Shown: positions 25,378 through 60,501, numbered from the stretch's first letter. The stretch: DNA of 64,000 nucleotides from an uncultured beta proteobacterium (GCA_963829995.1 CAWHKW010000031.1:238358-302357); one strand, 5' to 3'. Notes: generated from the letters alone by a model not told the origin. Program-made: numbers and translations.

Positions 25378-26352
25378 ATGATTCGCATACTTTTCGTGGC
25401 AATGATCTCGCTGTTTCTGTCCAGCGCACCCGCGCAGGCGCAGGAATGGCCGACCAAGCCGGTGCGCTTCATCGTCGGCTACCCGGCCGGCGGCGGTCAT
25501 GACTTCGTTGCCCGTACCGTCGCACAGCGGATGTCCGAGACAGTTGAAGCAGACCTTCGTTGTTGAGAACCGCTCCGGCGCGTCGGGCGCGATTGGCACT
25601 GACCACGTTGCCAAGAGCGACCCCGATGGCCATACCTTGCTGATTGCCTCACCCGCCGAAGTGCTGGTCGGGCCGATCGCCGGACAGAAAGTGCCGTACG
25701 ACCCGGCGAAGGACCTGGTGCCTGTGGCGTTGATCGGCGAGACGCCGCTCGCGGTCGGCCATCCACCCATCGGTACCTGCGAACACGATGCAGGAACTAC
25801 TGGCGCTTGCGAAGCGTTCGCCGGGCAAGTTGTCTTACGGCACTCCTGGAACCGGCAGCTCGCATGCAGTTTGCAGGGGAATCGATCAAAGCGATTGGCG
25901 ACGTATTCATCGTTCACATTCCCTATCGAGGTGCCGCGCCGGCGGTGACCGATCTTCTTGGCGGGCAGGTAGAAATCGGTATTGCCGGCATGCCGCCGGT
26001 CATCGGCCACCACAAGTCGGGCAAACTAAAAATCATCGCGGTCACCAGCGCCAAACGATCGTCAGCCACGCCGGAGATCCCGTCCGTAGCCGAAGTGCCG
26101 GGCTTCGCCGGCTTTCACTTCACGAACTGGCAGGGCGTGTACGCCGCTGCGAAAACGCCGCCCGCAGTAATCCAGCGCATCGCGGCGGAGATCGCCAACG
26201 CGGTGCGCGACCCCGCCACGCGACAACGGCTGTTGACCGCGGGCGTCGATCCACTCGGGCTGGGACCCACCGAGTTTTCCGCGTTCCTGGCTCGCGAGCA
26301 CGCCACTTACTCGAAGGTCGCGAAGGATCGCAACATCAAGCTCGGCGAGTAA
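25378..26352 (+). pseudogene. Bug-family (TctC-like) tripartite tricarboxylate transporter substrate-binding protein with at least 3 frameshifts
   Basis: The three ORF pieces (25378-25566, 25499-25948, 25807-26352) concatenate into a Bug-family protein (…FIVGYPAGGGHDFVAR… / …FVVENRSGASGAIGTDHVAKS… / …YGTPGTGSS…MQFAGE…). Confidence 0.65.
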
Positions 26353-26395
26353 ACAGTGGAAACGTACCTGCGACACATCCGTTTATCATCAAGGG

Positions 26396-26830
26396 ATGGC
26401 TGACCTCGCCGACATTCGTCTTGCCAACACCACCGCGCTCTTCGATGAGTTCAAAAGCACTGCCGTGGTCGGCCCGGCAGGCGACGAGCTAAAGGGACTC
26501 GAAGCGCGTTTTGCGGAGCAGCTGCGGATATCCGCGTCGTACTGGAGCCAGCTCAAAAGCCGCAACCGCCATATTGGCGAAACGCTGGCGCGGCAGTTCG
26601 AGGCGCATTGCGGTAAGCCGCAGGGCTGGCTGGACCAAAAGCAGGCCGTGCCGCAGGAACCCAGGACGGCGTCCGTGCCGGCGAGCGACAACGAACGGTT
26701 TCTCGTGCAGATGTTGCTGACCTGCTATCGATTGAATCCGGATGGGGTCAAGCAGCGGATGCTGGAGCTGATGGAAGGCGAGTTGGCAAAGGCGCAACAG
26801 CGTAAGCGAAAGAAGACCAACGGCGCTTGA
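26396..26830 (+). CDS. XRE/Cro-CI-type HTH DNA-binding protein (phage-repressor-like)
   Basis: …ASYWSQLKSRNRHIGETLARQFEAHCGKPQGWLD… resembles XRE-family phage regulators. Confidence 0.45.
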   Translation: MADLADIRLANTTALFDEFKSTAVVGPAGDELKGLEARFAEQLRISASYWSQLKSRNRHIGETLARQFEAHCGKPQGWLDQKQAVPQEPRTASVPASDNERFLVQMLLTCYRLNPDGVKQRMLELMEGELAKAQQRKRKKTNGA

Positions 26831-26889
26831 CTTTGCTAAATGGCTCTTTATCATCCGCATTCCTAGAAATTTGCGTAAGTCACTAAAAA

Positions 26890-27126
26890 GTTTGGAAATG
26901 AACTCAAGTCGCTCCTATCGCATCAGTTCGCCACGGCAATCTGCCGCGGCGTGCCTGCGCGCGCTTTCTTTCGAGAAAGCGGGCGGGGATGCGTCCGAGC
27001 ATAAGCAGCCAGTGAATCGCGATACGAACACACTCGATCCGGGCGGAGGTGCAAGCGCATAGCGCTTCCTCCGTTTGACGGCCCAAAGGCCCGGATCGCG
27101 CAAGCATCCGGGCCTTTTTGCTTTGT
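26890..27126 (+). ncRNA. Candidate small RNA: a lower-GC segment with a possible promoter (TTGCGT…TGGAAAT) ending in a strong stem-loop plus a rho-independent terminator
   Basis: Hairpin CGGAGG-tgc-AAGCGC ATA GCGCTT CCTCCG is followed by GGCCCGGATcgcgcaagcATCCGGGCC and TTTTTGCTTT (27085-27126). No convincing ORF. Confidence 0.25.
27085..27126 (+). terminator. Rho-independent terminator
   Basis: 9-bp GC-rich stem GGCCCGGAT/ATCCGGGCC followed by a T5 tract. Confidence 0.6.
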
Positions 27127-27465
27127 GCAATTAAGCGGGCCGGCGCAACGGCGCAGTGTCCGAAGTTCTTTAACAACTTGATAGCAACAACAGACTGGCC
27201 ACCGGTGGCGGGTGTGCGAACGCGCATGCCCGTCGCCGGTGGCGAGGCTGACATTCGTCACCTGCTTGAACATCAGGAGCAGGCGCGTGACGAATGCGCC
27301 CTTCGAGCCAGATGCGACGGCGCTCGCCTTGTAAGCGAGAGAAGACCAGGTTGGATTCCGTGGGAAGGGCGCCAAACAGCATCACACCTCGTCCGGTGGA
27401 TCCGGCGTTGCGGCTACGAACCGCGACTACTGATGTTCGATTCATCAACGAGGTGCCAATTTCAA

Positions 27466-27539
27466 AAGGGCGTAGTTCAACAGCAGAGCCTCGGCCTCCA
27501 AAACCGATGATGGGGATGCAACTTCCTCCGCCCTTGCCA
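27466..27539 (+). tRNA. tRNA-Trp (anticodon CCA)
   Basis: Hand-folded cloverleaf. Acceptor AAGGGCG/CGCCCTT, D-arm GTTC/GAGC, anticodon loop CTCCAAA, T-arm GGGGA-TGCAACT-TCCTC, 3' CCA. One C-A mismatch in the anticodon stem. Confidence 0.65.
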
Positions 27540-27543
27540 GCAT

Positions 27544-27618
27544 TGACCCGTGGCGTAACGGCAGCGCAGCGGTCTCTTAAACCGTCAGGTCTTGGTTCAA
27601 GTCCAAGCGGGTCAACCA
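27544..27618 (+). tRNA. tRNA-Lys (anticodon CTT)
   Basis: Acceptor TGACCCG/CGGGTCA, anticodon loop CTCTTAA, T-arm CTTGG-TTCAAGT-CCAAG, 3' ACCA. Confidence 0.75.
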
Positions 27619-27631
27619 GTTTTCAGATCAT

Positions 27632-27707
27632 TCCGCGATGGCCGACACGGCAAGGCAGCGCACTGTTAATGCGCTCGATAGTGGTTCGAATCCACTTCGC
27701 GGAGCCA
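27632..27707 (+). tRNA. tRNA-Asn (anticodon GTT)
   Basis: Acceptor TCCGCGA/TCGCGGA, anticodon loop ACTGTTAAT with stem GCGCA/TGCGC, T-arm AGTGG-TTCGAAT-CCACT, 3' GCCA. Confidence 0.75.
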
Positions 27708-27821
27708 GTTTCCTCCCGGGATGAAAACGCCACGGACGGCGCATTCCGGTTTCGCAGGCGCAGGCCTGTCTGCGAAGCAGCGGTCCGGCGTCGCATGCGA
27801 TGGCTGCAGGGCTTCGACATT

Positions 27822-27897
27822 CAGGGTGTAGCTCAGCTGGAAGAGTGCCGGCGTCGGAAGCCGGAGGCCGCTGGATCGTATCCAGCCACCCTGACCA
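27822..27897 (+). tRNA. tRNA-Pro (anticodon CGG)
   Basis: C1-G72 acceptor CAGGGTG/CACCCTG, D-arm TAGCTCAGCTGG, anticodon stem CCGGC/GCCGG with loop GTCGGAA, T-arm GCTGG-ATCGTAT-CCAGC, 3' ACCA. Confidence 0.75.
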
Positions 27898-27906
27898 ATA
27901 AATGAT

Positions 27907-27982
27907 GGCGATCGTGGTGTAGTGGTCTGCATCGCGTGCTGTGAACGCGCTGGTCCCGGATCGAAACCGGGCGATCGCCCCA
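27907..27982 (+). tRNA. tRNA-His (anticodon GTG) with the extra G-1:C73 pair
   Basis: 8-bp acceptor GGCGATCG/CGATCGCC, anticodon loop CTGTGAA, T-arm CCCGG-ATCGAAA-CCGGG, 3' CCA. Confidence 0.7.
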
Positions 27983-27991
27983 AAGTTTCAA

Positions 27992-28071
27992 CCCCAACTG
28001 ACGGGAATCTCGGCATACCTCGCTGTCTCAGAAACAGCGGCTTCTGCGTTCGAATCGCAGGTTGGGGACCA
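27992..28071 (+). tRNA. Non-canonical tRNA-like gene with anticodon CAG (Leu) but a class-I (short variable loop) architecture and an over-long 21-nt D region; possible pseudo-tRNA or indel-affected
   Basis: Perfect acceptor CCCCAAC/GTTGGGG, anticodon stem GCTGT/ACAGC with loop CTCAGAA, T-arm CTGCG-TTCGAAT-CGCAG, 3' ACCA. The D-arm cannot be folded canonically. Confidence 0.35.
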
Positions 28072-28073
28072 AT

Positions 28074-28148
28074 TGCAGGCGAGAGGGCTGGGTCCTCAGC
28101 GGTTTCATAAGCCGCGCTCGCTCGGTTCGATTCCGAGGCCTGCGACCA
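28074..28148 (+). tRNA. tRNA-Met (anticodon CAT; elongator type, or tRNA-Ile2 if lysidinylated)
   Basis: Acceptor TGCAGGC/GCCTGCG (U1-G72), D-arm GAGG/CCTC, anticodon loop TTCATAA, T-arm CTCGG-TTCGATT-CCGAG, 3' ACCA. Confidence 0.7.
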
Positions 28149-28263
28149 ATCGTTCGAATTGGAGCCAAAGGCGATCCATTTAATCGCGCCGCAATTCCGA
28201 ATCTCGCAACTAGCCGGCTCGAGCTCGCCGTATATCCAGGTGTACTCGCGGAGGACACTGCAA

Positions 28264-28596
28264 ATGGAAAACGGCAAGCATGTTTGGAAGGCTTTACTGT
28301 TGGGCGCGATTCTGGCGGGCAACCTGTCAGCGGCCCGCGCAGATGAACCGGTCGCCACTGGCACCCGCGGCGATCGAATCGACCTGTACGACGAGCAGGG
28401 TCCGGTCTGCCCCGAGGGTTTGAAGCGAGCGGTTTATACGTACCTGCTGCCGAACGGGCTCTCGGGTGAAACAGTCGAGGGCTGTTGGCGCGCGGATAGC
28501 ACGCTTGTTTTCATGGCGTTTGCCGATGGTGATCGCGGCGCAGTGGAGTTGGATGTTTTTACCTGGCGTCGGAGTCCTACCGGTCAACAGCTGTGA
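28264..28596 (+). CDS. Small secreted hypothetical protein embedded within the tRNA array
   Basis: Start MENGKHVWKALLLGAILAGNLSAARA (signal peptide). Followed by hairpin TTGCATCGCGagcCGCGATGCAA. Confidence 0.5.
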   Translation: MENGKHVWKALLLGAILAGNLSAARADEPVATGTRGDRIDLYDEQGPVCPEGLKRAVYTYLLPNGLSGETVEGCWRADSTLVFMAFADGDRGAVELDVFTWRRSPTGQQL

Positions 28597-28689
28597 ACTT
28601 TCTTGCATCGCGAGCCGCGCGATGCAACGTTGATCTTCGGTAAGCCAGCTCAACGCCGACATCTGAGTCGGCTTCGTCGAATCAAACAC

Positions 28690-28783
28690 GGTAGGTTGGC
28701 CGAGTGGCAAGGCACTCCTCTGCTAAGGGAGCGAGTTGTCGATCAGCGATGACGCGCGCGTTCGATCCGCGCACCTACCTCCA
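28690..28783 (+). tRNA. tRNA-Ser (anticodon GCT), class II with a long variable arm
   Basis: Acceptor GGTAGGT/ACCTACC, D-arm GCC-GAGTGGCAA-GGC, anticodon loop CTGCTAA, 22-nt variable arm, T-arm GCGCG-TTCGATC-CGCGC, 3' TCCA. Confidence 0.7.
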
Positions 28784-28789
28784 ATAACT

Positions 28790-28884
28790 GGAAGCGCAAA
28801 CCGATTGGCGACGGTGCCCGCCTTGAAAGCGGTGTGAGCTGCTATCAGCAGCCTTGGGCGTTCGACTCGACCCCGCTTCCGCCA
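28790..28884 (+). tRNA. Irregular tRNA-Ser-like gene (anticodon TGA); the acceptor pairs perfectly but the D and T arms do not fold cleanly
   Basis: Acceptor GGAAGCG/CGCTTCC with 3' GCCA, anticodon loop CTTGAAA, hairpin variable arm GCTGC…GCAGC. The T region GGGCGTTCGACTCGACCCC is imperfect. Confidence 0.35.
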
Positions 28885-28888
28885 ACTC

Positions 28889-28963
28889 GAACCGCTTGAC
28901 TTCTGGTGAGGTCACTAGGCCTTCAACCTAGCAAGACGGGTTCGATCCCCGTGCGGTTTACCA
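28889..28963 (+). tRNA. tRNA-Glu (anticodon TTC)
   Basis: Acceptor GAACCGC/GCGGTTT, D-arm GACT/GGTC, anticodon stem CTAGG/CCTAG with loop CCTTCAA, 4-nt variable loop, T-arm ACGGG-TTCGATC-CCCGT, 3' ACCA. Confidence 0.75.
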
Positions 28964-28965
28964 AC

Positions 28966-29042
28966 TGCGGCGTCGCCAAGTGGCCCAAGGCACCTGGCTC
29001 TGAACCAGGTATTCGTAGGTTCGACTCCTACCGCCGCTGCCA
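28966..29042 (+). tRNA. tRNA-Gln (anticodon CTG)
   Basis: Starts UGCGGCG like E. coli tRNA-Gln, D-arm GCC-AAGTGGCCCAA-GGC, anticodon stem CCTGG/CCAGG with loop CTCTGAA, T-arm GTAGG-TTCGACT-CCTAC, 3' GCCA. Position 1-72 is U-U. Confidence 0.7.
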
Positions 29043-29058
29043 ATTGATTCTTGATATC

Positions 29059-29134
29059 GCATCCCAAGCTGACCAGGTGGCAGCGCCGGTTTGAAGCACC
29101 GGAGGGTGTGGCTCGATACCACAGGGATGCACCA
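29059..29134 (+). tRNA. tRNA-Phe (anticodon GAA)
   Basis: Acceptor GCATCCC/GGGATGC, D-stem GCTG/CAGC, anticodon stem CCGGT/ACCGG with loop TTGAAGC, T-arm TGTGG-CTCGATA-CCACA, 3' ACCA. Confidence 0.75.
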
Positions 29135-29226
29135 AACACGGCGCATTGACGTAGACGGATGCGTACCCGGCTGTCGACCGGAGGAGAGCGGATCAATGCC
29201 GCTATGCGCCGCCACTAAAATCTTAG

Positions 29227-30447
29227 ATGGAGAACATCATGGATCTCAACGCATTGAACAACGTCCGCGCCTGGACGAATGGCGTGGAGGTCGAGTACGA
29301 CGCGGTCGCGCAGGTCAAGAACATTGCATCGCTGCCGATCGTCGCGGGACACGTCGCGATCATGCCGGACGTGCATCTCGGGAAGGGCGCGACGGTGGGT
29401 TCGGTGATTCCGACCCGGGGCGCAATCATTCCGGCGGCCGTAGGCGTCGACATCGGTTGCGGTATGTGCGCGGTGCGCACAGTGTTGACGGCGAACGATC
29501 TACCGGATTCTCTGGGCAAGATTCGCTCGGCAATCGAAGCACGCGTTCCGGTCGGGTTTTCCGCGCACGACAAGCCGGTCAGCACGCATAGTGATGGCCT
29601 GTTCGGTATGGCGCTGAAGCGCAAGGGCGAAGAACTGCACGATCGCTACAACTCGCTTCGCATCATGGATCGGGTCGGCAAGTTCGATCACAAGCGCGTC
29701 TGGAATCAGGTCGGCACGCTCGGCGGCGGCAACCACTTCGTCGAGCTCTGCCTCGACGAATCGGACGCCGTGTGGATCATGCTGCACTCGGGTTCACGCA
29801 ACGTCGGTAAGACGATCGGCGAAACTGCGATTGGGATGGCGCGCGAGATGGCCGTCAAGCACCACCGTCATCTGCCGGATCGTGACCTGGCATGGCTGGA
29901 CGAAGGCTCGCCGGAATTCGACGAATACGTCGAAGGGCTGCGTTGGGCGCAGGAGTATGCGGCGCATAACCGCAACCAGATGCTGCACGCGGTGCTGAAG
30001 TCGCTGCGCGAGGAGTTCGGGCGCGAGATTGGCACGAGCGAGCACGCAGTCAACTGCCACCACAACTACAGCTCGCTCGAGGAACACTTCGGCGAGCAGG
30101 TGTGGATCACGCGCAAGGGTGCGGTGTCGGCACGCGCCGGTGAGCTCGGCATCATTCCGGGCAGCATGGGTGCGCGTTCGTTCATCGTGCGCGGCAAGGG
30201 AAACGCGGATGCGTATCACTCGTGCTCGCACGGGGCAGGGCGTCGTTTGTCGCGCAATGCGGCCAAGCGCAAGTTCACGCTCGATGATCTGCGCAAGCAG
30301 ACCGAAGGCGTCGAATGCCGCAAGGACGCGGGCGTGCTCGACGAAATCCCGGGCGCATACAAGGACATCGACGCAGTGATGGCCGCGCAGGCCGATCTGG
30401 TCGAAGTCGTGCACACGCTGAAGCAGATCATGTGCATCAAGGGCTAA
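29227..30447 (+). CDS. rtcB: RNA-splicing ligase RtcB (3'-phosphate/5'-OH RNA ligase)
   Basis: Near full-length colinearity with E. coli RtcB (…HVAIMPDVHLGKGATVGSVIPT…GGGNHFVELC…CHHNY…SCSHGAGR…AYKDIDAVMAAQADLVEVVHTLKQIMCIKG). No rtcA or rtcR adjacent. Confidence 0.9.
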   Translation: MENIMDLNALNNVRAWTNGVEVEYDAVAQVKNIASLPIVAGHVAIMPDVHLGKGATVGSVIPTRGAIIPAAVGVDIGCGMCAVRTVLTANDLPDSLGKIRSAIEARVPVGFSAHDKPVSTHSDGLFGMALKRKGEELHDRYNSLRIMDRVGKFDHKRVWNQVGTLGGGNHFVELCLDESDAVWIMLHSGSRNVGKTIGETAIGMAREMAVKHHRHLPDRDLAWLDEGSPEFDEYVEGLRWAQEYAAHNRNQMLHAVLKSLREEFGREIGTSEHAVNCHHNYSSLEEHFGEQVWITRKGAVSARAGELGIIPGSMGARSFIVRGKGNADAYHSCSHGAGRRLSRNAAKRKFTLDDLRKQTEGVECRKDAGVLDEIPGAYKDIDAVMAAQADLVEVVHTLKQIMCIKG

Positions 30448-30573
30448 GCGTCGTCGTGAATATTCAGTAGCACAGCCGCAGAACGGTCGGCGGCGCACGC
30501 CGACCGTTCGCCCTACCGTGCAGCCCGTGAAAGCTCGCTACGAGCCATCCTGTTTCAAACGTAAGAATCCGGG

Positions 30574-30840
30574 ATGGCATCGGAAATGATTGCGTTGCGA
30601 GCGTTCTTCACGATGAACATCATTGAACACAAAAGAGGCATCGCCATGAGACATGCTCAAGACAACCTGAAACCCGCCAGCCGGTTGCTGGACCTCCGGT
30701 TCAATTACATCCCTGCGGCGGCGACCGATATCGCGGCGACATGGAAGCGCTTCGGATTCGATCCGCACGCTAACAAGCAACGGCGTGAGCAGCTTAGGAA
30801 CAGCATCACCGGCCCTGCGGCTGCACTAATCGCATCGTAA
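30574..30840 (+). CDS. Small hypothetical protein (88 aa)
   Basis: ORF only; no recognisable domain. Confidence 0.25.
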   Translation: MASEMIALRAFFTMNIIEHKRGIAMRHAQDNLKPASRLLDLRFNYIPAAATDIAATWKRFGFDPHANKQRREQLRNSITGPAAALIAS

Positions 30841-30985
30841 GTATTCAGATCCGCTATTGCGGATCCACCTAATTCTCTCGGCAAGCTGCCGTCAGCGGGC
30901 CAGCCTCGTGAGTGCTGCCTGGTGCGCGCGCCCGTCCCGTACGTCGGACGCGCGCATACCGCGGCAAGGCGCTGAGTGAATGCAT

Positions 30986-31070
30986 CGTGATTTGGCGCAG
31001 AGGTAGCGCACGCGTCTCATCGAGAAAATGAAAACGCGAGGTGAAGGTTCGACTCCTTCAATCACGACCA
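30986..31070 (+). ncRNA. tRNA-Met-like element with an 11-nt insertion in the anticodon loop (CTCAT-cgagaaaatga-AA); aberrant tRNA, pseudo-tRNA or tRNA-like ncRNA
   Basis: Otherwise canonical: acceptor CGTGATT/AATCACG, D-arm GCGC-AGAGGTA-GCGC, anticodon stem CGCGT/ACGCG, T-arm GAAGG-TTCGACT-CCTTC, 3' ACCA. Confidence 0.4.
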
Positions 31071-31144
31071 CTCCCTAGCTCAGTGGGTAGAGCAACGGTC
31101 TGATAAGCCGTCAGTCGCGGGTTCGACTCCCGCGGGATATCCCT
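31069..31144 (+). ncRNA. tRNA-Ile(GAT)-like element with a defective acceptor stem (only 4 of 7 bp) and no 3' CCA; it abuts the previous element
   Basis: D-arm TAGCTCAGTGGGTAGAGC, anticodon stem ACGGT/GCCGT with loop CTGATAA, T-arm GCGGG-TTCGACT-CCCGC. 5' CACTCCC versus 3' GGGATAT. Ends in the palindrome GGGATATCCC. Confidence 0.35.
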
Positions 31145-31433
31145 GGAAGGGCTTGCTTCACAACCGGGAAGGCCTCGGCGCCCGATCGTGAATTGCACTT
31201 CGGTGCGATGAGCGAGACGGCCGCACCGCCCGCTCGGCCTGCGCTCCGGCAGCGCATCACTTCGAAACGGTTCCCGTTGATTGGCACGTCGCTCACCGAG
31301 CTTGCTCGCGCATCGCTCGGCAATGCGCCGTGGCGTCGGCGCGTCCGACTTCCTCGTGATGCAAAACCGCAGCCCGCCGTTCGGCCGGGAGGCCCACTCC
31401 CATTTTTATCAATCGTTCTTTAGGAGAAAAACC

Positions 31434-32567
31434 ATGTTCCGCAAGTTCCTGATCAAGAAGGACGAACGCGGACTGCTGTTTCGCAAGGGTGACTTCGTCA
31501 CTGTGCTGCACGCGGGAGAGCACCGTTACTTCGATCCGTTTATGCGTCTGACTGTCGAAAAGTATCCGCTCGCGAAGACCGCGTTCGACCATCGTCTGGC
31601 CGACTACCTGCGTCATGCAGAGCCGGCGCTGATTGAACGCGAGTTCCATGTTGTCGAAGTGGGTCCGACCGAAGTCGGGCTGCGCTACGAAAACCGTCTG
31701 CTCGTCGAAGTCATTGCGCCGAATACGCACCGCCTGTACTGGAAGGGCTACATCGACGTACGCGTAGCGCGCATCGACATCAGCGAAAACTTCGTGCTGC
31801 CGCATAGCCTGACGCTGCAGCTCGGAACCGCAACCGGCCGCGCGAAGGTGATCGGCGCCGAGCACGTGCTCGCGGTCCAGGTGCCGCAGCATCACGTCGG
31901 CCTGCTGTTCGTCGACGGCAAGGTGCATCAGATGCTGCAGCCGGGTCTGCACGCGTTCTGGAAGTTCAACCGCGATCTGCGCGTTGAGCTGGTTGATCTG
32001 CGCATGCTGCCGCTCGAAGTCGCTGGCCAGGAAATCCTGACCAAGGACAAGGTGGCGCTGCGCATCAATTTGAACGCCGGCGTGCGCTTCATCGACGTGC
32101 TGGCCGCGTTCGCGCAGCAGGCCAAGCCGCTCGACTACCTGTACCGCGAGCTGCAGTTCGGGCTGCGTGCGGCTGTTGGCACACGCACGCTCGACGAGCT
32201 GCTCGAAGACAAGGGGTCAATCGACCGCACTGTTGCCGAGCACATCGGTGCACGCGCGCGTGCTGCCGGAATGGAAGTCGCAAGCGTCGGGGTGAAGGAC
32301 ATCATCCTGCCGGGCGAGATGAAGACCATCCTCGCTCGCGTGGTGGAAGCCGAAAAGGCTGCGCAGGCCAACGTGATTCGTCGTCGTGAAGAAACGGCGG
32401 CGACGCGCAGCCTGCTCAACACCGCGAAGGTGATGGAAGACAACCCGATTGCGCTGCGAATGAAGGAGCTGGAAACGCTGGAAAAGGTCACCGAGAAGAT
32501 CGACAAGATCAGTGTCTACGGTGGACTCGACAGCGTGCTGAAGGATCTGGTGAAGATCCGCGCGTAG
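31434..32567 (+). CDS. SPFH/band-7 (slipin/stomatin-like) domain protein
   Basis: RBS and MFRKFLIKKDERGLLF… with SPFH core and a coiled-coil tail. The last 74 nt of the gene are duplicated at 33824-33897. Confidence 0.75.
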   Translation: MFRKFLIKKDERGLLFRKGDFVTVLHAGEHRYFDPFMRLTVEKYPLAKTAFDHRLADYLRHAEPALIEREFHVVEVGPTEVGLRYENRLLVEVIAPNTHRLYWKGYIDVRVARIDISENFVLPHSLTLQLGTATGRAKVIGAEHVLAVQVPQHHVGLLFVDGKVHQMLQPGLHAFWKFNRDLRVELVDLRMLPLEVAGQEILTKDKVALRINLNAGVRFIDVLAAFAQQAKPLDYLYRELQFGLRAAVGTRTLDELLEDKGSIDRTVAEHIGARARAAGMEVASVGVKDIILPGEMKTILARVVEAEKAAQANVIRRREETAATRSLLNTAKVMEDNPIALRMKELETLEKVTEKIDKISVYGGLDSVLKDLVKIRA

Positions 32568-33897
32568 TTAGAAGGTCTCGCACGCTCCTCGCTGCTGCAT
32601 GGTGGCGAGGAGCAGCTGCGAGGGTGGTGTCATTTCGGAGGCAGTGGCTTGATAAACCCGCCCTTTCCCATCAGGTCGCCAAAGCCCGGATTCGGTGGAG
32701 GCGCAGGTTTCACCGCGGGCGATGGCCCTGTAGCCTGTTGTTTGTCGCGGTGATGGCTCCATAGGCCGAATTCATAGTCGCCTGAGCAACCCTGACTTCT
32801 TCCGCCATGAATTTGTTACCAGTCTCCGTTACCCTAAACCGAACGATCCCGCCAGTGACAGTGCTGAAGCTGTGGGATAAGAGGAACTGCCTCACAGTCT
32901 CCCTGAACGCTTTCGTCCTTGCGGTCGGCGGGTTGGCCCATGACTCCTTCTTCACAACGGTTGGAGGTACGCAGACGTCCAGGATGTACTGGCCGGAAAT
33001 GCGAGGCTTCGGGGCATCGGGACCGCGCATGAGGTCCTTCAGGACTGCATGGAGATGCATTTTGTCCCCGGGGCCTTGCGTGACCGGAGTGGATGAGGAC
33101 TGCCAGCCGGCGACCGGGATCGCCCGGTCGTTTGGGCCAAGTGCCACCGTGAACCTCTTCGGTGGGCCGTACTGCTTGCTATATGAATTGGGATACAAAC
33201 CCTGCGTCGGTTCCCAGACGATCGATGCAGGAATCAGAACGCCCTTCGGACATTTGTGCTGCGGGTCTTTCCCGTTCACTCGGTACTTGTAGTTCTCCCC
33301 TCCTACGCACAGATGAAAGCGGGACGTCGCAACGCCGCTGGGCGGGCGAATCTTGACCGCGCCCGTGACGCCGGTTGAGTCGGTAAACACAAAAGCCAGA
33401 TGCAGCGGGAAGCTTTGGAAACTGAACAGATTGTTCGGCGCATAGAACTGCGAAAAAACGAGCTTGCACTTTCCAGGTTCAACCCGGTGCCAGTACTCGA
33501 TCATCCAAAACTCGTCGGTGAAGCCGAAGTCCTTATAGGCGACCGCCACAAGCACCTTGATCTGGCCTTGGTTGCAGACTTCCGCGTGATAAAGCTCATT
33601 CGGTTGTCCGGCGTAGTCATATTGTGGGGCGGCCCACAGGCGCGCAGCGGGCAGTAGAAGCAACGTGGTCAGCAGCGCGATCCGGATAGGGCTCACTTGG
33701 CCTCCCTGTCTCTCCGGGCAACGCCTGAACCACTTCGAACCTGACCCGGCTAACTAAACAGAATGCGCTTGGCAGCCGCAGCGTGTCAATGCAGGTTGGA
33801 TTCGGGCCAAGCGCAGCATACCCAGAAGATCGACAAGATCAGCGTGTACGGTGGACTCGACAGCGTGCTGAAGGATCTGGTGAAGATCCGCACGTGA
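32494..33897. mobile_element. Cassette-like insertion at the 3' end of the SPFH gene: a 1256-bp lower-GC segment (32568-33823) bracketed by imperfect 74-bp direct repeats of the SPFH gene 3' end
   Basis: Direct repeats at 32494-32567 and 33824-33897 differ at ~5 of 74 positions. The second copy is followed by the presumed original terminator. Insert GC ~52% versus ~64% flanks. No integrase or transposase inside. Confidence 0.45.
32710..33696 (-). CDS. Secreted hypothetical protein carried on the insertion
   Basis: Signal peptide MSPIRIALLTTLLLLPAARLWAAP. Cysteine-containing, no recognisable domain, lower GC. Confidence 0.5.
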   Translation of the reverse strand: MSPIRIALLTTLLLLPAARLWAAPQYDYAGQPNELYHAEVCNQGQIKVLVAVAYKDFGFTDEFWMIEYWHRVEPGKCKLVFSQFYAPNNLFSFQSFPLHLAFVFTDSTGVTGAVKIRPPSGVATSRFHLCVGGENYKYRVNGKDPQHKCPKGVLIPASIVWEPTQGLYPNSYSKQYGPPKRFTVALGPNDRAIPVAGWQSSSTPVTQGPGDKMHLHAVLKDLMRGPDAPKPRISGQYILDVCVPPTVVKKESWANPPTARTKAFRETVRQFLLSHSFSTVTGGIVRFRVTETGNKFMAEEVRVAQATMNSAYGAITATNNRLQGHRPR

Positions 33898-34797: not shown

Positions 34798-35247
34798 ATG
34801 AAAAGAGCAATTCTGATCGTCGCGGCGCTTGGTTCACTGGTGCTCGCGGGTTGTGCGCACCGCTTTTCCATCATCGATCCGGCTCGGCCGCAGGTGTTTG
34901 TTTCGGAGGGTAGGATCGTGGTCAATCAGGAGCCGGTGATCGTGAAGCGGCCCGGCACCATCACATGGACGGTGCCCTGGGGTTCGAATGTCCGCTTTGC
35001 CGACAACGGCATTACGGTGGATGCATTCGTCAAGCCACTGCCAACGCGTGACGGAAGGCCACAGCCGCGCCCAGTCACCCGCGACACGAGTCGGGCCTCT
35101 CTGTTCAAGTGCGAACCCAACAAGGAGAGAACCGAGTTCTCCTGCAATGTGCCGCAAGAGGTCCAACCGGGCTTCTATGCCTACACGATTCGCGTGCTCG
35201 CCGACGGCAAGCCGGTCGAACTGGATCCGACGGTCATGGTCGAGTAG
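34798..35247 (+). CDS. Lipoprotein, hypothetical
   Basis: MKRAILIVAALGSLVLAGC lipobox, preceded by AGGAGG-like RBS context. Confidence 0.55.
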   Translation: MKRAILIVAALGSLVLAGCAHRFSIIDPARPQVFVSEGRIVVNQEPVIVKRPGTITWTVPWGSNVRFADNGITVDAFVKPLPTRDGRPQPRPVTRDTSRASLFKCEPNKERTEFSCNVPQEVQPGFYAYTIRVLADGKPVELDPTVMVE

Positions 35248-38014
35248 CAGCCAACCAGCGGCGCGCCCGCTGCGTTGCTTCGTCGTAGCCGACGGAGCGC
35301 CCGACGGATTCGCGCTCCAGTGCCATCGGACCGAGTGCTGCGCGCGCCCGCGCAATCGCTGCTGATAGAAAGGCCTGGTCGGCCGGATCACGGCGCAGTT
35401 CGCTGCGGTCGGCCTGCGCCTCGGCTGCTCCGAAGAACTCGGCGCCGAGGGGAAGGTCGCATTCGGCCACAGCCAGGCCTGCACAGACCTCTAGAAGACT
35501 TTGGCCCATCGCCTTTGAGCCGGTGCGGTCGACGATCGTCAGAACTTCCTCGAGCAGTCGTCTTGCCTCCGAAGGTTGATCGCGAAGCACTGCGACCATG
35601 GCTAGATTGAGCAATCCGATTGCCACGCTCTCGTCGTCGCACAGTTCACGCGCGAGAGACAGGAACTCGGTATACAGCGGGCACGCGCGATCAAGCACTC
35701 CCTGAGCCCTTAGCACCTGCGCCTGAGTGTTCATTGTTGCCGCCAGCGTGCGTTTGTTGCTGGCGGTGCGCGCAAGCGCGACGGCCTCTTCGCAACACGC
35801 AAGCGCGGAGTCGGGGTTTCCGAGCGCGAGCTCGACCATGCCGAGCAATTGCAAAACCGCCACTACGCGGGAACCATCGTTGAGCTCGCGTGCAATCGAA
35901 AGGCTCTGCTGCAGGAGTTCGTGCGCCTCGGTATAGCGACCCATGAAGTAGCAGATCTGACCCGCGTCCGCGAGCCCGCGGCAGCGCGACAGCGTTCGGC
36001 TCTGGGCATGGGGCCGAGCCAGCGCTTCGCTCGTGACTCGATATCCCAGACCGAGAAGTCCGCGGTTCAGCCAATAGAACTTCAGGGCGAACACCATGCG
36101 CAGATCGGTCTCAGCGCCGCGGTCACTTCGGTCGCACCACGCATGGGCAGCGAGGATGTTCTCGCGTTCACGGTCAAGTATGGTCATGCACGTGCCTTGC
36201 TCTGGCCCGAGCATTCTCGGTCGCAGCTGCTCGACGAACTGCGAGTAGAAATCGAGATGACGCTGGCGGGCGGCTGCGTTATCGCCAAATGCGTCGAGCT
36301 TCTCCAGCGCGTAATGCCGCACGGTGTCCAGCATCCGGTACCGCTCCCCGCTCACTTCCATCACGACCAGCGACTTTTCGACCAGCTGCGACTGCAGGTC
36401 GACGACGTCGCTGGCTTCGATCGGGCCGCCCGCACAGATCGCTTCAGCGCCCTCCAGCGTCCAGCCGCCCGCGAACACTGCGAGCCGCTGGAAAGCCGCG
36501 CGCTCGCGTTCGTCGAGCAGGTCGTAGCTCCAGTCGATCAATGCGCGCAGCGTGCGCTGGCGCGGCAACACGGTCCTGTCGCTGGTTACCAGCAGCTTGA
36601 AGCGGTCGTTCAGCCGCGCAGCGATGTTCTCGACCGACAGCGCGCGTGCACGCGCGGCCGCGAGCTCGATCGCGAGCGGGATGCCGTCCAGCTGATGGCA
36701 GATGTCGGCGACCGCTGTGGCGTTGCCGCCCGTAAGCACGAACTCCGGACGGGCCGCAGTCACGCGGTCGATGAACAGGCGTACGGCTTCGTGCTGCGGC
36801 TAGCGCCGAGAGCGACTCCTTTGCCTGCGGGTCGGGCGCGCTCAGCGTCGGCACGTGGTAGGTCGTTTCCCCAGCGACCTGCAGGTAGTCGCGACTCGAG
36901 GTCAAGCACTTTCACGCCGGACCCGGCCTGCAGTAGCTGTTTGGCCAGGTCAGCGCACGCATGAACGACGTGCTCGCAGTTGTCGAGCATGACCAGCACG
37001 CGCTAGTCGCGCACGTACTTCAGTCAGCGCTTCGATCACCGGCCGGCCGGCTTCTTCCTTGACGCCGAGCACCGAGGCCACCGCCTGCGGCACCAACCGC
37101 GCATCGGTCAGCGGCGCAAGCTCGACAAACCAGACGCCGTCGGGGAAGTCGTCGAGTACTTCGGCCGCGAGCTGCATCGACAGCCGCGACTTGCCGATGC
37201 CACCCATCCCAAGCAGCGTCACTAGCCTGTTCGACGCGAGCATGTCCCTGATCTCCGAAAGCTCGCGTTCGCGGCCGATGAACGAGTTCAGCTGTTGCGT
37301 GAGGTTGTTCGGCGTCCCTTCCAGCGATCGCAACGCGGGAAAATCGGCGCGCAGTTGCGGGTGCAGCAGTTGGAAGATGTGCTCCGGGGTCGACAGGTCG
37401 CGGAGTCGCACCGCGCCCAGGTCCCGTAGCGATGCGCCATCCGGGAGCATTCCGTTAACTTGATCAGCCACCGCCTTCGAAAGCAACATCTGGCCACCAT
37501 GGGCAGCGCACATGATCCGAGCTGCGCGATTAACCGACCGGCCATAAAAGTCGCCGTCGCGTCGCTCGTCAATTCCGGCATGCAGTCCGCAACGCAACGG
37601 TAGCGGCAAGCCGTCTGCGGTTTCTGCTGTCGATAGCTGTTGCTGGATCTCCAGAGTGGCGATCAATGCATCGAGCGGGCGGTCAAACGCGGCATGTATG
37701 CCATCGCCGGTCATCTTCACGATCGTTCCACGGTTGCGTTCGACCGCGCTCTTCGAGATCGCGTCATGCCGCGCCATTACCAGTGGCATCCGCGCGGACT
37801 CCTGCTCCCAGAGTCGGGTGCTGCCCTCGATATCTGTGAAAAGAAATGTGACTGGAGACTGTTCAGACACGTTGGTAATGTGCCGAGCCAAGGCAGAGCC
37901 GGATGTTACTGCGGAGTCGATTCGCAACGGCGCCGCGCTCTGCCGCCTGTGCGCGAGTTGGCTTACGCTAACGCGAACCGGACGATTCCATGGGTACCAG
38001 CGATTCGAAGCCAA
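35234..38014 (-). pseudogene. Adenylate/guanylate cyclase (CHD) + NB-ARC/AAA ATPase + TPR (STAND-type) protein, broken into 3 or more frames with in-frame stops around 36760-37000
   Basis: Cyclase motifs FLFTDIEGST…VKMTGDGIHAAF, P-loop GMGGIGKSRL, NB-ARC LDNCEHVV in a second frame (36760-36999), and TPR-rich C-terminal ORF 35234-36763. Confidence 0.65.
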
Positions 38015-55836: not shown

Positions 55837-55881
55837 ACTTTCGGCGTCGCAAATTGCGCGATACATTCAAGGAGGCATTCG

Positions 55882-56130
55882 ATGAAGCGTTACGTTTCTG
55901 TTGCGGCAGCGCTCATGCTGTTCATGAGCGCCGCATTTGCCAATAGCTGCCCCACCATGATGAAAAAGATCGACGACGCGATGGCAGCGAAGCCGAAAAT
56001 GACCGACGCGCAAATGGCGGATGTCAAAAAGTACCGCGCTGAGGGCGAAACAATGCACAAGGCCGGCAAACACAAGGAATCGGAAGCCGCGCTGACCAAG
56101 GCGATGGCAATAATGAACATCAAGCCATAG
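55882..56130 (+). CDS. Small periplasmic protein (signal peptide, Lys/Ala-rich)
   Basis: [20 protein letters not shown] signal. Followed by a terminator. Confidence 0.5.
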
Positions 56131-56136
56131 GAGAAG

Positions 56137-56176
56137 TTGCAACGACAACACGCCGCCCATGGGCGGCGTGTTGTTT
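56137..56176 (+). terminator. Rho-independent terminator
   Basis: ACACGCCGCCCATGGGCGGCGTGT perfect hairpin followed by TGTTTTTCG. Confidence 0.7.
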
Positions 56177-60439: not shown

Positions 60440-60501
60440 AGCGGCACGAATTGTGCCACGGGCCCCGTGTGAGCAAGACACGTAGTTAAGGCAGAAACAA
60501 G

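What the first reader, a model, noticed from the sequence alone, without database searches (positions are those of the whole stretch)
26396..31145. Dense 12-gene tRNA array coupled to a stand-alone RtcB RNA ligase and an XRE regulator
Twelve tRNA genes are packed into about 1.7 kb: Trp-CCA, Lys-CTT, Asn-GTT, Pro-CGG, His-GTG, a CAG Leu-like, Met-CAT, Ser-GCT, a TGA Ser-like, Glu-TTC, Gln-CTG and Phe-GAA. A small secreted-protein gene is embedded, and rtcB (tRNA/RNA repair ligase) follows immediately.

Nearly all anticodons carry C or G at the wobble position, so the array would decode exactly the G/C-ending codons a high-GC host uses most. Arrays like this are characteristic of phages, plasmids and islands rather than core chromosome.

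An array paired with RtcB suggests a module that buffers or repairs the tRNA pool against anticodon nucleases (PrrC/colicin/VapC-type toxins, phage-defence tRNases). The XRE regulator and the sRNA candidate at the 5' edge, plus the lower local GC, fit horizontal acquisition. No rtcA or rtcR is present.
Basis: partly seen in the sequence, partly recalled or inferred. Interest (0 to 1): 0.8.

Follow-up and report, generated by a model that had tools for sequence, protein, structure and literature searches.

The report
Transferable tRNA-array and RNA-repair cassette
A 6.2-kb gene cassette in a soil Burkholderiaceae chromosome combines a repressor-like regulator, 15 unusual spare tRNA genes, the RNA ligase RtcB, two tRNA mimics and a Band-7 protein; it joins two already described systems that are thought, without experimental proof, to rescue translation when tRNAs are damaged.

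Summary
The array has 15 tRNA genes on one strand (27298-29214), not 12. rtcB starts 12 nt after the last tRNA.

RtcB is not stand-alone. Downstream lie two abutting tRNA-like RNAs (30985-31140) inside a roughly 520-nt structured RNA, then a Band-7/SPFH gene. This is the RtcB/Band-7/"b7a-tRNA" system predicted by Burroughs and Aravind (2016).

The upstream 144-aa ORF has no Pfam match but is a Cro/CI-type HTH by profile and fold. It is followed by a conserved promoter, leader, terminator and boxA-like motif.

The unit from ORF144 to Band-7 recurs in related metagenomic genomes, once in a different genomic context, with tRNA gains and losses. Stems keep pairing through compensatory changes. Several tRNAs are atypical: a short tRNA-Leu, and six T-loops that are not TTC.

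The cassette RtcBs group next to phage RtcBs that sit beside tRNA arrays. Local GC is not low, and no mobility genes are present.

Long tRNA arrays next to rtcB are already published, so this is a new variant of known kinds. The anti-nuclease/translation-rescue function remains inferred.

The parts
26396..26830 (+). ORF144: 144-aa Cro/CI-type HTH protein, the candidate regulator and first gene of the cassette
   Evidence: No Pfam or NCBIfam hit. The family has 68 clusters, all from metagenomes or MAGs. A profile search against PDB hits the PaaR2/phage CI N-terminal domain (E = 2e-6), Cro-like proteins and the SPC32H repressor. The AF2 model has pLDDT 77. Foldseek top hits are nearly all Cro/CI/XRE HTH proteins, best E = 4e-3. 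Homologues occupy the same position in L001, L162, L165 and L166.
26827..26854 (+). Sigma-70-like promoter (TTGACT-16-TATCAT) overlapping the ORF144 stop codon
   Evidence: 10 of 12 consensus matches. TTGAC and TATCAT are conserved in window, L162, L165 and L166. This is a consensus match only; no transcription data exist.
26860..27124 (+). Conserved leader RNA ending in an intrinsic terminator (stem 27088-27114, T-run 27115-27119). Invariant GATCCGGGC at 27037-27045 could pair with the terminator's 5' arm as an antiterminator.
   Evidence: Alignment and alifold of 5 loci. The terminator and the preceding GGCGGAGG/CCTCC hairpin are conserved even in L001 and L164. Frameshifting indels argue against a coding region. 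The attenuator reading is inference.
27165..27176 (+). boxA-like motif GTTCTTTAACAA (rrn-type antitermination box)
   Evidence: TCTTTAACAA occurs once in the 64-kb window against 0.03 expected. It is present at the homologous position in L162, L165 and L166. The resemblance to E. coli rrn boxA (TGCTCTTTAACAA) is from established knowledge.
27298..27374 (+). tRNA-Thr(TGT), with a weak T-stem and T-loop TTGGATT
   Evidence: Found by ARAGORN only at a relaxed threshold. Its orthologue in L166 (10977-11053) is found at 95% of the default threshold (-ps95). The sequence is conserved in L162, L165 and L166.
27386..27707 (+). tRNA-Arg(ACG) 27386-27458, Trp(CCA) 27466-27539, Lys(CTT) 27544-27618, Asn(GTT) 27632-27707
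   Evidence: ARAGORN. Rfam tRNA scores: Lys 62.4, Asn 57.2, Trp 47.0 bits; Arg is not reported at E <= 1. Compensatory stem changes are seen against orthologues.
27708..27821 (+). Conserved 114-nt non-tRNA spacer element
   Evidence: 84-93% identical in L162, L165 and L166. 88% identical in L164, where no tRNAs exist. A three-hairpin consensus is predicted. Function unknown.
27822..28148 (+). tRNA-Pro(CGG) 27822-27897, His(GTG) 27908-27982, short class-I-like Leu(CAG) 27992-28071, Met(CAT) 28074-28148
   Evidence: ARAGORN. The short Leu is orthologous to genes that ARAGORN calls tRNA-Leu: L005 70-148 (79 nt), and L002 CAA and TAA (78 nt each). Covariation supports the stems.
28264..28596 (+). 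110-aa ORF with a signal-peptide-like N-terminus, followed by a hairpin at 28603-28627
   Evidence: ORF list. No family hit. Genes of 110 aa and 121 aa are called at the corresponding position in L162 and L165. Absent in L005.
28690..29214 (+). tRNA-Ser(GCT) 28690-28783, Ser(TGA) 28790-28884, Glu(TTC, C33) 28889-28963, Gln(CTG) 28966-29042, Phe(GAA) 29059-29134, Asp(GTC) 29140-29214
   Evidence: ARAGORN and Rfam. Orthologues of the Glu gene in L005 and L165 have the canonical U33.
29227..30447 (+). RtcB 3'-phosphate/5'-OH RNA ligase (406 aa)
   Evidence: Pfam PF01139 E = 1.5e-127, profile positions 1-426 of 426. Aligns end to end with T. thermophilus and P. horikoshii RtcB, with the conserved blocks around DIGCG, GGNHF, HSGSR, HHN and HGAGR matched to the T. 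thermophilus sequence.
30574..30840 (+). ORF88, a doubtful small gene
   Evidence: No family hit. Intact in L162; the match splits into two separate HSPs in L005 and in L165, suggesting frameshifts.
30887..31405 (+). Structured RNA of about 520 nt upstream of Band-7. It comprises a 5' two-hairpin domain, a closing helix, tRNA-like unit 1 (30985-31070; 18-nt 'anticodon' loop; ends ACCA), tRNA-like unit 2 (31071-31140; the b7a-tRNA proper; 4-bp acceptor, no CCA), a small hairpin and a long 3' domain.
   Evidence: Rfam tRNA hits of 57.8 and 53.8 bits; ARAGORN. Unit 2 across 12 loci: 99.5% of cells paired, 7 pairs with double changes, 0 of 500 shuffles reach the observed paired fraction or covariation score. 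Flanking domains across 6 loci: 89 pairs, 41 with double changes against 16.3 +/- 3.0 in shuffles (0 of 500) and 7-12 in slid controls. No Rfam family other than tRNA.
31431..32567 (+). Band-7/SPFH protein (378 aa from the ATG behind AGGAGA), last gene of the cassette
   Evidence: Pfam Band_7 E = 4.8e-24. Homologues lie next to RtcB in 14 of 80 genomic loci, most of them preceded by a tRNA-like RNA. L166 homology ends exactly at 32567.

Best explanation
The feature is a compact cassette of about 6.2 kb (26369-32567) that has been transferred horizontally but is now chromosomally resident. It fuses two known modules. The first is a long tRNA gene array ('L-array') with an RtcB ligase of a phage-allied lineage. 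The second is the RtcB-associated Band-7 protein with its tRNA-like 'b7a' RNA.

Proposed working, with each step marked shown or inferred:
1. A Cro/CI-type HTH protein (ORF144) sits directly upstream of a conserved promoter (gene order and fold similarity shown; repression inferred).
2. Transcription passes a structured leader with an intrinsic terminator and a boxA-like site, so read-through into the array is probably conditional (sequence elements shown; regulation inferred).
3. The array supplies 15 sequence-divergent tRNAs for the host's most used codons. The RNAs are kept foldable by selection (shown by compensatory changes). That they are aminoacylated and used in translation is inferred.
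4. RtcB reseals tRNAs, and possibly rRNA, that carry the 2',3'-cyclic phosphate and 5'-OH ends left by anticodon or T-loop nucleases. The enzyme family and its motifs are shown; the substrates are inferred.
5. The tRNA mimics in the Band-7 leader, together with the Band-7 protein, act as cofactor, decoy or sensor for that repair. The association is shown; the role is unknown.

Net function: keep translation running during tRNA damage or translational stress.
For: Composition and order.

The same ORF144-to-Band-7 block occurs in other loci:
- L165: same neighbourhood but different immediate flanks.
- L162: same synteny, with part of the cassette deleted.
- L166: unrelated flanks (arginase on one side, LigD on the other; hao genes nearby).
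- L001: a reduced form with a single tRNA-Gly and an HNH gene.

Array content varies among close relatives. L165 also has Tyr, Gly-TCC, Ile-GAT and Val-TAC.

Across the 14 tRNA genes tested (all but Thr-TGT), 328 predicted pairs show 20 compensatory and 22 one-sided changes, with only 8 broken cells.

tRNA arrays lie beside RtcB relatives in 6 of 80 genomic and 14 of 80 viral loci. In an NJ tree the cassette RtcBs form one clade, and the adjacent large group (after four array-poor Burkholderiales MAG sequences) is phage RtcBs, many next to 9-28 tRNAs.

The Band-7 gene and tRNA-like RNA are linked to RtcB in Burkholderia, Ralstonia, Lysobacter and other taxa. Unit 2 shows strong covariation.

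Anticodons match the most used codons.

Literature: L-arrays spread by HGT, have rtcB in their neighbourhood and are co-induced with rtcB under translational stress (PMC8421152). The TrcR regulon contains the trn operon, rtcB, an HNH gene and a slipin (PMC10272220). The RtcB/Band-7/b7a-tRNA prediction is summarised. A Band-7 gene sits inside the P. aeruginosa rtc locus (PMC13086221).
Against: - No expression, aminoacylation or phenotype data exist for this cassette or any close relative.
- The host's full tRNA set is unknown, so redundancy is unproven.
- Several tRNAs carry features that might impair function: C33 in Glu, non-T54 T-loops, a weak T-stem in Thr, and low or absent Rfam tRNA scores for 7 of 15.
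- L162 shows anticodon point changes and a deletion that removes b7a and half of Band-7, so the cassette can decay.
- No tRNase toxin gene was recognised in the window.
- No mobility gene or att-like repeat marks the cassette ends.
- The NJ tree has no support values.
Confidence: 0.6

Rival explanations
1. It is an ordinary housekeeping tRNA cluster of this lineage that happens to lie next to an RNA-repair operon. The tRNAs would be the cell's main or only copies.
For: The locus is embedded in core chromosome (aspS, GS-like and metabolic genes) with no mobility genes. It sits at the same site in two close relatives. Its composition and codon usage match the host.
Against: - tRNA content differs among relatives whose shared DNA is about 78-98% identical to the window, and the whole block occurs in a different context in L166.
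- The array covers only 15 anticodons.
- Rfam tRNA scores are at most 62 bits, and 7 of 15 genes have no tRNA-model hit at E <= 1. Eight stand-alone tRNAs in other loci score 57-73 bits.
- Atypical features include a tRNA-Leu without a long variable arm and six non-TTC T-loops.
- No tRNA in the plasmid/chromid or phage collections gave a reported blastn match (E <= 1e-5) to the array.
Confidence: 0.08
2. It is a remnant of a phage or prophage tRNA-plus-RtcB region. It once served phage translation or counter-defence and now persists without benefit to the host, either neutral or decaying.
For: The nearest non-cassette RtcBs outside Burkholderiales MAGs are on viral contigs rich in tRNAs. rtcB shares 65-71% nucleotide identity with jumbo and phiCbK-like phage rtcB. 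Signs of decay are present in L162, in the Glu C33 change and in ORF88.
Against: - There are no phage structural, replication or integration genes in 64 kb.
- The cassette carries Band-7 and b7a, which are absent from all 80 viral RtcB loci.
- The block is conserved across lineages, with compensatory changes in the tRNAs and in both leaders. This indicates ongoing selection.
Confidence: 0.12
3. The array RNAs are not mainly translation substrates. Instead they act as decoys or sponges for tRNA-targeting nucleases, or as sensors or substrates feeding the RtcB/Band-7/b7a pathway.
For: The locus already contains undoubted tRNA mimics that cannot decode: unit 1 has loops of about 4-18 nt, and unit 2 lacks CCA. 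Many array tRNAs have non-canonical T-loops or D-loops. The sponge idea has been raised for Anabaena (PMC8421152).
Against: All 15 genes keep 7-nt anticodon loops, distinct sensible anticodons matched to host codon usage, an encoded CCA, and plausible identity elements: a G preceding the His acceptor with C at the discriminator position, and A at the discriminator position of Leu.
Confidence: 0.15

Closest known systems
Long horizontally transferred tRNA gene arrays ('L-arrays'), e.g. the Anabaena PCC 7120 trn operon, with co-regulated rtcB and the TrcR repressor (PMC8421152, PMC10272220)
   Same: Many different tRNA genes on one strand with short spacers. Patchy distribution. rtcB in the neighbourhood. 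A small dedicated repressor-type regulator. A slipin/Band-7 gene and an HNH gene in the same regulon or family of loci. The proposed role in translational stress.
   Different: Here rtcB and Band-7 are physically fused to the array in one 6.2-kb block. The regulator is a Cro/CI-type HTH of an undescribed family, not the ribbon-helix-helix TrcR. The array is shorter (15 against 26 genes). The HNH gene is not adjacent. The host is a betaproteobacterium. Expression is untested.
   Same: RtcB lies next to a Band-7 protein whose gene is preceded by an RNA that strongly resembles tRNA.
   Different: In this clade the tRNA-like RNA is a tandem pair inside a structured RNA of about 520 nt. The system has no RtcR/sigma-54 control and no RlaP, both of which are present in the Burkholderia versions. 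A tRNA array is inserted in the same operon-like block. I could not check whether the tandem form and the large leader were already noted in the 2016 paper.
Phage tRNA arrays next to RtcB (phiCbK-like Caulobacter phages, BcepSauron, jumbo-phage contigs)
   Same: Dense arrays of divergent tRNAs beside rtcB. The RtcB lineage is closest to these.
   Different: There is no phage backbone here. Band-7 and b7a are present here but absent from the viral loci (0 of 80).
RtcR-regulated rtcBA operon of E. coli and rsr-yrlBA-rtcBA of Salmonella (PMC7790460)
   Same: An RtcB ligase is linked to a tRNA-mimicking ncRNA. The presumed trigger is damaged tRNA.
   Different: There is no RtcR, no RtcA, no Ro60/Rsr and no YrlA. 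The tRNA mimic is of the b7a type.

Membership tests
L-array (long horizontally transferred tRNA gene array) | Ten or more tRNA genes, same orientation, close enough to be co-transcribed | tested here: met
   15 genes on the + strand between 27298 and 29214. Spacers are mostly 2-16 nt, with five longer ones (81-541 nt), the largest being the 541-nt one that holds a small ORF.
L-array (long horizontally transferred tRNA gene array) | Non-periodic, many different isoacceptors | tested here: met
   15 different anticodons. The repeat search found no repeated unit within the array.
L-array (long horizontally transferred tRNA gene array) | Sporadic phylogenetic distribution, or different genomic contexts, indicating HGT | tested here: met
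   The cassette has unrelated flanks in L166 compared with the window, L162 and L165. Arrays occur in only 6 of 80 RtcB-relative genomic loci. tRNAs are gained and lost between close relatives.
L-array (long horizontally transferred tRNA gene array) | Adds supernumerary, redundant tRNA genes to a complete housekeeping set | not testable with these tools
   Only this 64-kb window is available. It holds no other tRNA, and the exact RtcB sequence is not on record in the assembly index.
L-array (long horizontally transferred tRNA gene array) | Silent in normal growth, induced by translational stress | not testable with these tools
   Needs expression data. Only a promoter, terminator and boxA arrangement is seen.
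RtcB / Band-7 / b7a-tRNA repair system | RtcB-family ligase with intact catalytic motifs | tested here: met
   Pfam RtcB E = 1.5e-127 over the full length. The metal and GMP-histidine motifs align with solved RtcBs.
RtcB / Band-7 / b7a-tRNA repair system | Band-7/SPFH protein encoded adjacent to RtcB | tested here: met
   The Band_7 domain protein at 31431-32567 lies 984 nt downstream of rtcB. The same pairing is seen in 14 of 80 genomic loci.
RtcB / Band-7 / b7a-tRNA repair system | tRNA-like ncRNA directly associated with the Band-7 gene | tested here: met
   Two tRNA-like units at 30985-31140. The unit 2 cloverleaf is 99.5% paired with 7 covarying pairs across 12 loci.
RtcR-regulated rtcBA operon | RtcR (CARF + sigma-54 activator) adjacent | tested here: not met
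   tblastn with the Burkholderia RtcR (Pfam-confirmed) finds 24 of 80 loci but nothing in the window.
RtcR-regulated rtcBA operon | RtcA RNA 3'-phosphate cyclase in the operon | tested here: not met
   No RTC-cyclase domain among the Pfam-scanned ORFs of the window. No dedicated RtcA query was run, and a few small ORFs were not scanned.
Rsr (Ro60) / Y-RNA (YrlA) module | TROVE-domain Ro60 protein and a YrlA-type RNA | tested here: not met
   No TROVE domain in the scanned ORFs (same calls). The Rfam scan at E <= 1 reports only tRNA-clan hits and weak chance hits.
XRE/Cro-CI HTH regulators | Recognisable HTH_3-type domain by family profile | tested here: not met
   No Pfam or NCBIfam match even at E <= 10 and E <= 1 respectively.
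XRE/Cro-CI HTH regulators | Cro/CI-like helical DNA-binding fold | tested here: inconclusive
   A family profile hits the PaaR2/CI N-domain at E = 2e-6. The AF2 model (pLDDT 77) retrieves almost only Cro/CI/XRE proteins, but with weak E-values (best 4e-3, TM about 0.4). DNA binding is untested.
Prophage / integrative element | Integrase, phage or conjugation genes, flanking att repeats | tested here: not met
   None among the annotated ORFs of the 64-kb window. No flanking repeats at the cassette ends.

The most novel reading that the evidence does not exclude
The cassette may be a self-contained, transferable immunity module against tRNA-cleaving toxins, with three cooperating parts.
1. Divergent tRNAs whose altered T-loops, D-loops and anticodon loops make them poor substrates for tRNases. 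Examples are the non-T54 T-loops and a tRNA-Leu without a variable arm.
2. A phage-derived RtcB that reseals what does get cut.
3. A previously undescribed riboregulator of about 520 nt carrying two tRNA mimics. It would act as the damage sensor: cleavage or RtcB-dependent religation of the mimics, or their binding by the nuclease, would switch Band-7 translation. An attenuator-type leader under a Cro/CI-like repressor would switch the array.
Probability: 0.2. Interest if true: 0.8.

Novelty: new variant of a known kind. Interest (0 to 1): 0.55.

Why it matters
Long tRNA arrays and the RtcB/Band-7/b7a system are each widespread, yet neither has an established function. Here the two are welded into one small block with its own regulator and leaders. 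That argues they act in a single pathway.

The block is compact enough (6.2 kb) to clone and move into a tractable Burkholderia or E. coli strain. There one could test directly whether spare divergent tRNAs plus RtcB protect against anticodon or T-loop nucleases, CDI toxins, phage-defence tRNases or ribosome-targeting antibiotics.

The locus also offers three candidate structured RNAs that are not in Rfam, and an unusual class-I-like tRNA-Leu for tRNA-identity studies.

Tried and rejected
- **Intron-containing tRNA.** I considered that 30986-31070 is a tRNA-Met with an 11-nt intron spliced by RtcB. Rejected: the 11-nt insert is present in the window and L165 but absent in L005, and other orthologues have loops of about 4-6 nt with unrelated sequence. 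It is a variable loop of a tRNA mimic.
- **Allo-tRNA geometry.** I considered that the odd CAG tRNA is an 8/4 'allo-tRNA'. Rejected: ARAGORN on orthologues, and alifold, give a normal 7/5 cloverleaf with a large D-loop and a 5-nt variable region.
- **Leader peptide.** I considered a leader peptide in 26871-27062 and a small peptide in the 27708-27821 spacer. Rejected: single-nucleotide indels between orthologues break the frames.
- **Y-RNA/Ro module.** Rejected: there is no TROVE protein and no YrlA hit.
- **Searches that led nowhere.**
  - blastn of the region against plasmid and phage collections matched only rtcB.
  - An exact-protein lookup of RtcB found nothing on record.
  - Burroughs and Aravind 2016 could not be read, so its details are second-hand.
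  - Pfam on genes flanking the arrays in L029, L051 and L002 showed no shared regulator.
  - An alifold of five Burkholderia b7a leaders was too conserved to add covariation.
- **GC evidence.** GC content and skew give no island signal.

Full report

Yes. ARAGORN at default settings reports 11 tRNA genes on the + strand between 27386 and 29134, plus one odd call at 30986-31070. An Rfam scan at E <= 1 adds three tRNA-like hits: 28888-28960, 29140-29211 and 31072-31137.

The array therefore holds 15 genes in 1.92 kb: Thr-TGT, Arg-ACG, Trp-CCA, Lys-CTT, Asn-GTT, Pro-CGG, His-GTG, Leu-CAG (short), Met-CAT, Ser-GCT, Ser-TGA, Glu-TTC, Gln-CTG, Phe-GAA and Asp-GTC. All encode CCA. rtcB (29227-30447) begins 12 nt after tRNA-Asp and is a full-length RtcB (Pfam E = 1.5e-127). 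The conserved blocks align with the solved T. thermophilus RtcB.

The claim of lower local GC is not borne out. The region is 0.596-0.611 against 0.58-0.65 across the window, and GC3 of cassette genes is 0.76-0.80, like their neighbours.

**2. What else is there?**

RtcB is not stand-alone. Two abutting tRNA-like units lie downstream.
- Unit 1 (30985-1070, i.e. 30985-31070) has a good acceptor, D-arm and T-arm. Its 'anticodon' arm is a hairpin with an 18-nt loop, and it ends in ACCA.
- Unit 2 (31071-31140) has invariant D- and T-arms and a 7-nt loop, but only a 4-bp acceptor and no CCA.

A Band-7/SPFH gene (31431-32567) follows.

The same trio of RtcB, tRNA-like RNA and Band-7 is found in L001, L002, L005, L034, L061, L165 and L166. 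It is also found in Burkholderia and Ralstonia loci, where a divergent rtcR and a sigma-54 promoter precede it and RlaP follows it.

[quoted passage not shown]. I could not read the original paper. A Band-7 gene inside the rtc locus is also noted for P. aeruginosa.

Unit 2 across 12 loci is 99.5% paired. Seven pairs show changes on both sides, and 0 of 500 shuffles reach the observed paired fraction or covariation score.

The two units sit inside a larger conserved RNA (30887-31405). It has a 5' two-hairpin domain, an 8-bp helix that closes around both units, a small hairpin and a long 3' domain that ends just before the Band-7 ribosome-binding site. Outside the tRNA-like units there are 89 predicted pairs, 90.9% paired. 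Of these, 41 show double changes, against 16.3 +/- 3.0 in shuffles (0 of 500) and 7-12 in slid controls. Two caveats apply: only six sequences were used, three of them close, and the structure was derived from the same alignment. Rfam 15 has no family for this RNA.

**3. The upstream end**

ORF144 (26396-26830) has no Pfam or NCBIfam match. It belongs to a family of 68 clusters, all unnamed and all from metagenomes or MAGs. A profile of the family hits the PaaR2/phage CI N-terminal domain (E = 2e-6), Cro-like YdaS and the SPC32H repressor in the PDB. An AlphaFold model (pLDDT 77) retrieves almost exclusively Cro/CI/XRE HTH proteins, though with weak statistics (best E = 4e-3).

Several conserved elements follow ORF144:
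- A promoter-like site (TTGACT-16-TATCAT, 26827-26854) overlaps its stop codon. It is conserved in four loci.
- A conserved leader follows, ending in an intrinsic terminator (stem 27088-27114 plus T-run).
- An invariant GATCCGGGC (27037-27045) could alternatively pair with the terminator's 5' arm. This is an attenuator-like layout, and that reading is inferred only.
- A boxA-like GTTCTTTAACAA lies at 27165-27176. It is the only copy in the window (0.03 expected) and is present at the homologous place in L162, L165 and L166.

No RtcR, RlaP, RtcA or TROVE protein is present in the window.

**4. Comparative evidence that this is one cassette**

- L162 (a Burkholderiaceae MAG) shares about 89.5% DNA identity over 9.3 kb and has the same synteny: SBP_bac_5, ComA, sulfatase, TctC, ORF144, array, RtcB.
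- L165 has the same wider neighbourhood but lacks ComA, sulfatase and TctC, so ORF144 abuts the SBP gene. It carries a different insert after Band-7.
- L166 has the block in an unrelated context: arginase, then the cassette, then LigD, with hao genes nearby. Homology stops exactly at the end of Band-7.
- L001 has a reduced version: ORF144-like gene, leader, one tRNA-Gly, RtcB, HNH, b7a pair, Band-7.
- L164 has only ORF144, the leader, the 114-nt element and Band-7.

The unit is therefore ORF144 to Band-7 (26369-32567).

Array content is fluid. L165 additionally has Tyr, Gly-TCC, Ile-GAT and Val-TAC. L005 has an extra degenerate unit and lacks the small ORF. L162 has anticodon point changes (Pro CGG to AGG; Gln CTG to CGG) and a deletion that removes b7a and the 5' half of Band-7.

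**5. Are the tRNAs functional RNAs?**

Orthologue alignments were made for 14 of the 15 tRNAs (all except Thr-TGT). Across 328 predicted pairs there are 20 compensatory and 22 one-sided changes, with only 8 broken cells. Examples are the Lys T-stem (CTTGG/CCAAG against CTCCG/CGGAG) and the completely replaced but still paired variable arm of Ser-GCT. This indicates selection on the fold.

The tRNAs are nevertheless atypical.
- Rfam tRNA scores are 40-62 bits for eight of them. The other seven have no tRNA-model hit at E <= 1; three of these score only against the tRNA-Sec model, below its threshold. Eight stand-alone tRNAs in other loci score 57-73 bits.
- Six T-loops lack the usual TTC: Trp TGC, Pro ATC, His ATC, Asp ATC, Phe CTC and Thr TTG.
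- Trp also lacks the D-loop GG.
- Glu has C33 in this window only.
- tRNA-Leu(CAG) is 80 nt with a 5-nt variable region. The same short type is seen as CAG in L005, and as CAA and TAA in L002.

The wobble argument holds only for the informative cases. Lys-CTT, Gln-CTG, Pro-CGG and Leu-CAG read the most used codons (69%, 71%, 63% and 48%), and Arg-ACG covers CGC/CGT (68%).

**6. Origin**

RtcB relatives have tRNA arrays of at least 3 genes nearby in 6 of 80 genomic loci and 14 of 80 viral loci. Band-7 occurs in 14 of 80 genomic and 0 of 80 viral loci. RtcR occurs in 24 of 80 genomic and 0 of 80 viral loci.

In an NJ tree without support values, the cassette RtcBs (window, L165, L162, L166, L001, L029, L002) form one clade. 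Four array-poor Burkholderiales MAG sequences join it next. The adjacent group after that is 15 viral contigs, seven of which carry 9-28 tRNAs near RtcB. The Burkholderia RtcR/Band-7 RtcBs are distant.

In L002 the array lies between rtcB and b7a rather than upstream of rtcB. In L029 and L051, arrays flank rtcB together with an HNH gene and no Band-7.

The simplest reading is that a phage-type 'array plus RtcB' unit became combined with the bacterial b7a/Band-7 pair.

The window itself is ordinary chromosome. It contains aspS, a GS-like gene, transporters and an Lhr/ligase repair cluster, with no integrase, transposase or phage genes. No att-like repeats mark the cassette ends.

**7. How it most likely works**

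- Shown: the gene content, the conserved order, the selection on RNA folds, the intact RtcB motifs, and the recurrent array-RtcB and RtcB-Band-7-tRNA-mimic linkages.
- Inferred: ORF144 represses the promoter next to it. The leader, terminator and boxA make entry into the array conditional. The tRNAs are processed, charged and used when the normal pool is damaged or when translation is stressed. RtcB reseals cut tRNA. The b7a RNA and Band-7 assist or sense this.

This parallels Anabaena, where the trn L-array, rtcB, an HNH gene and a slipin gene belong to one repressor regulon and are induced by ribosome-targeting antibiotics.

From my own knowledge, not tested here: the set Arg-ACG, Tyr, His, Asn, Asp, Lys, Met, Gln and Glu overlaps the known targets of colicins D and E5, PrrC, VapC and related tRNases. 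In addition, some Burkholderia CDI toxins cut the T-loop or the acceptor stem. That makes the altered T-loops suggestive, but this is speculation.

**8. Verdict**

The association between tRNA arrays and RtcB, and the repair/buffer idea, are already in the literature, as is the RtcB/Band-7/b7a system. The following appear new, within the limits of what I could search:
- The compact fused cassette.
- Its Cro/CI-like regulator family.
- The promoter/attenuator/boxA leader.
- The tandem tRNA mimics inside a 520-nt structured RNA.
- The odd tRNAs.

I rate this a new variant of known kinds, of moderate interest. Its value is mainly as a tractable test bed.

Noticed in passing
window 30887-31405: The b7a tRNA-like pair is embedded in a conserved structured RNA of about 520 nt. 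It has a 5' two-hairpin domain, a closing helix around both units and a long 3' domain reaching the Band-7 RBS. Outside the tRNA-like units, 41 of 89 pairs show compensatory changes (0 of 500 shuffles). It is not in Rfam 15. Burkholderia versions show a broadly similar layout behind a sigma-54 promoter.
   Followed up: partly
window 26827-27176: Between ORF144 and the array lies a conserved promoter, leader, intrinsic terminator (27088-27124) and boxA-like GTTCTTTAACAA (27165-27176). An invariant GATCCGGGC (27037-27045) can pair with the terminator's 5' arm, which makes this a possible attenuator.
   Followed up: partly
window 27708-27821; L164 10808-10910: The 114-nt spacer between tRNA-Asn and tRNA-Pro is as conserved as the tRNAs (84-93%). 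It also occurs in L164 (88%), where an ORF144 homologue, the leader and this element sit directly upstream of a Band-7 gene with no tRNAs, RtcB or b7a. Three hairpins are predicted. Function unknown.
   Followed up: partly
window 27992-28071; L005 70-148; L002 7010-7168: tRNA-Leu genes of 78-80 nt lack the long variable arm that bacterial tRNA-Leu normally has. They have A at the discriminator position and a large D-loop. They occur with CAG, CAA and TAA anticodons in related arrays.
   Followed up: partly
window 32490-32565 and 33820-33895: A 76-nt direct repeat (95% identical) duplicates the 3' end of the Band-7 gene. It brackets a 1.33-kb insert carrying a DUF1036-like gene (32710-33696, minus strand). 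L162 lacks the insert and L165 has a different insert, so the site downstream of Band-7 seems to be an insertion hot spot.
   Followed up: partly
window 25378-26352: The TctC/Bug-family receptor gene just upstream of the cassette is split over three reading frames (at least two frameshifts). It is intact (322 aa) in the close relative L162. This is either a pseudogene or a sequencing error.
   Followed up: partly
window 59858-60535 (minus strand): An HNH_5 endonuclease gene is 42% identical to the HNH gene inside the L001 cassette and similar to those next to the arrays of L029 and L051. HNH genes are typical companions of L-arrays. Here it lies 29 kb away, beside SWIB and BamE-like genes.
   Followed up: no
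L162 11421-11496 and 12470-12548: In a close relative, two orthologous tRNAs carry anticodon point changes (Pro CGG to AGG; a Gln-type body with CGG instead of CTG). The same MAG has a 1.1-kb deletion that removes b7a and the 5' half of Band-7. This could be decay, anticodon shifting or assembly error.
   Followed up: no
window 53156-58780: A DNA-repair-like cluster contains an ATP-dependent DNA ligase (54190-55836) and an Lhr-type helicase (56159-58780), preceded by PLD-like and exo/endonuclease/phosphatase-family genes. It is unrelated to the finding.
   Followed up: no
window 35234-38014 (minus strand): Adjacent genes encode a TPR protein and an adenylate/guanylate-cyclase plus STAND-type NTPase protein, 3 kb downstream of the cassette. 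A TPR gene also follows the cassette in L165. No link to the cassette was tested.
   Followed up: no
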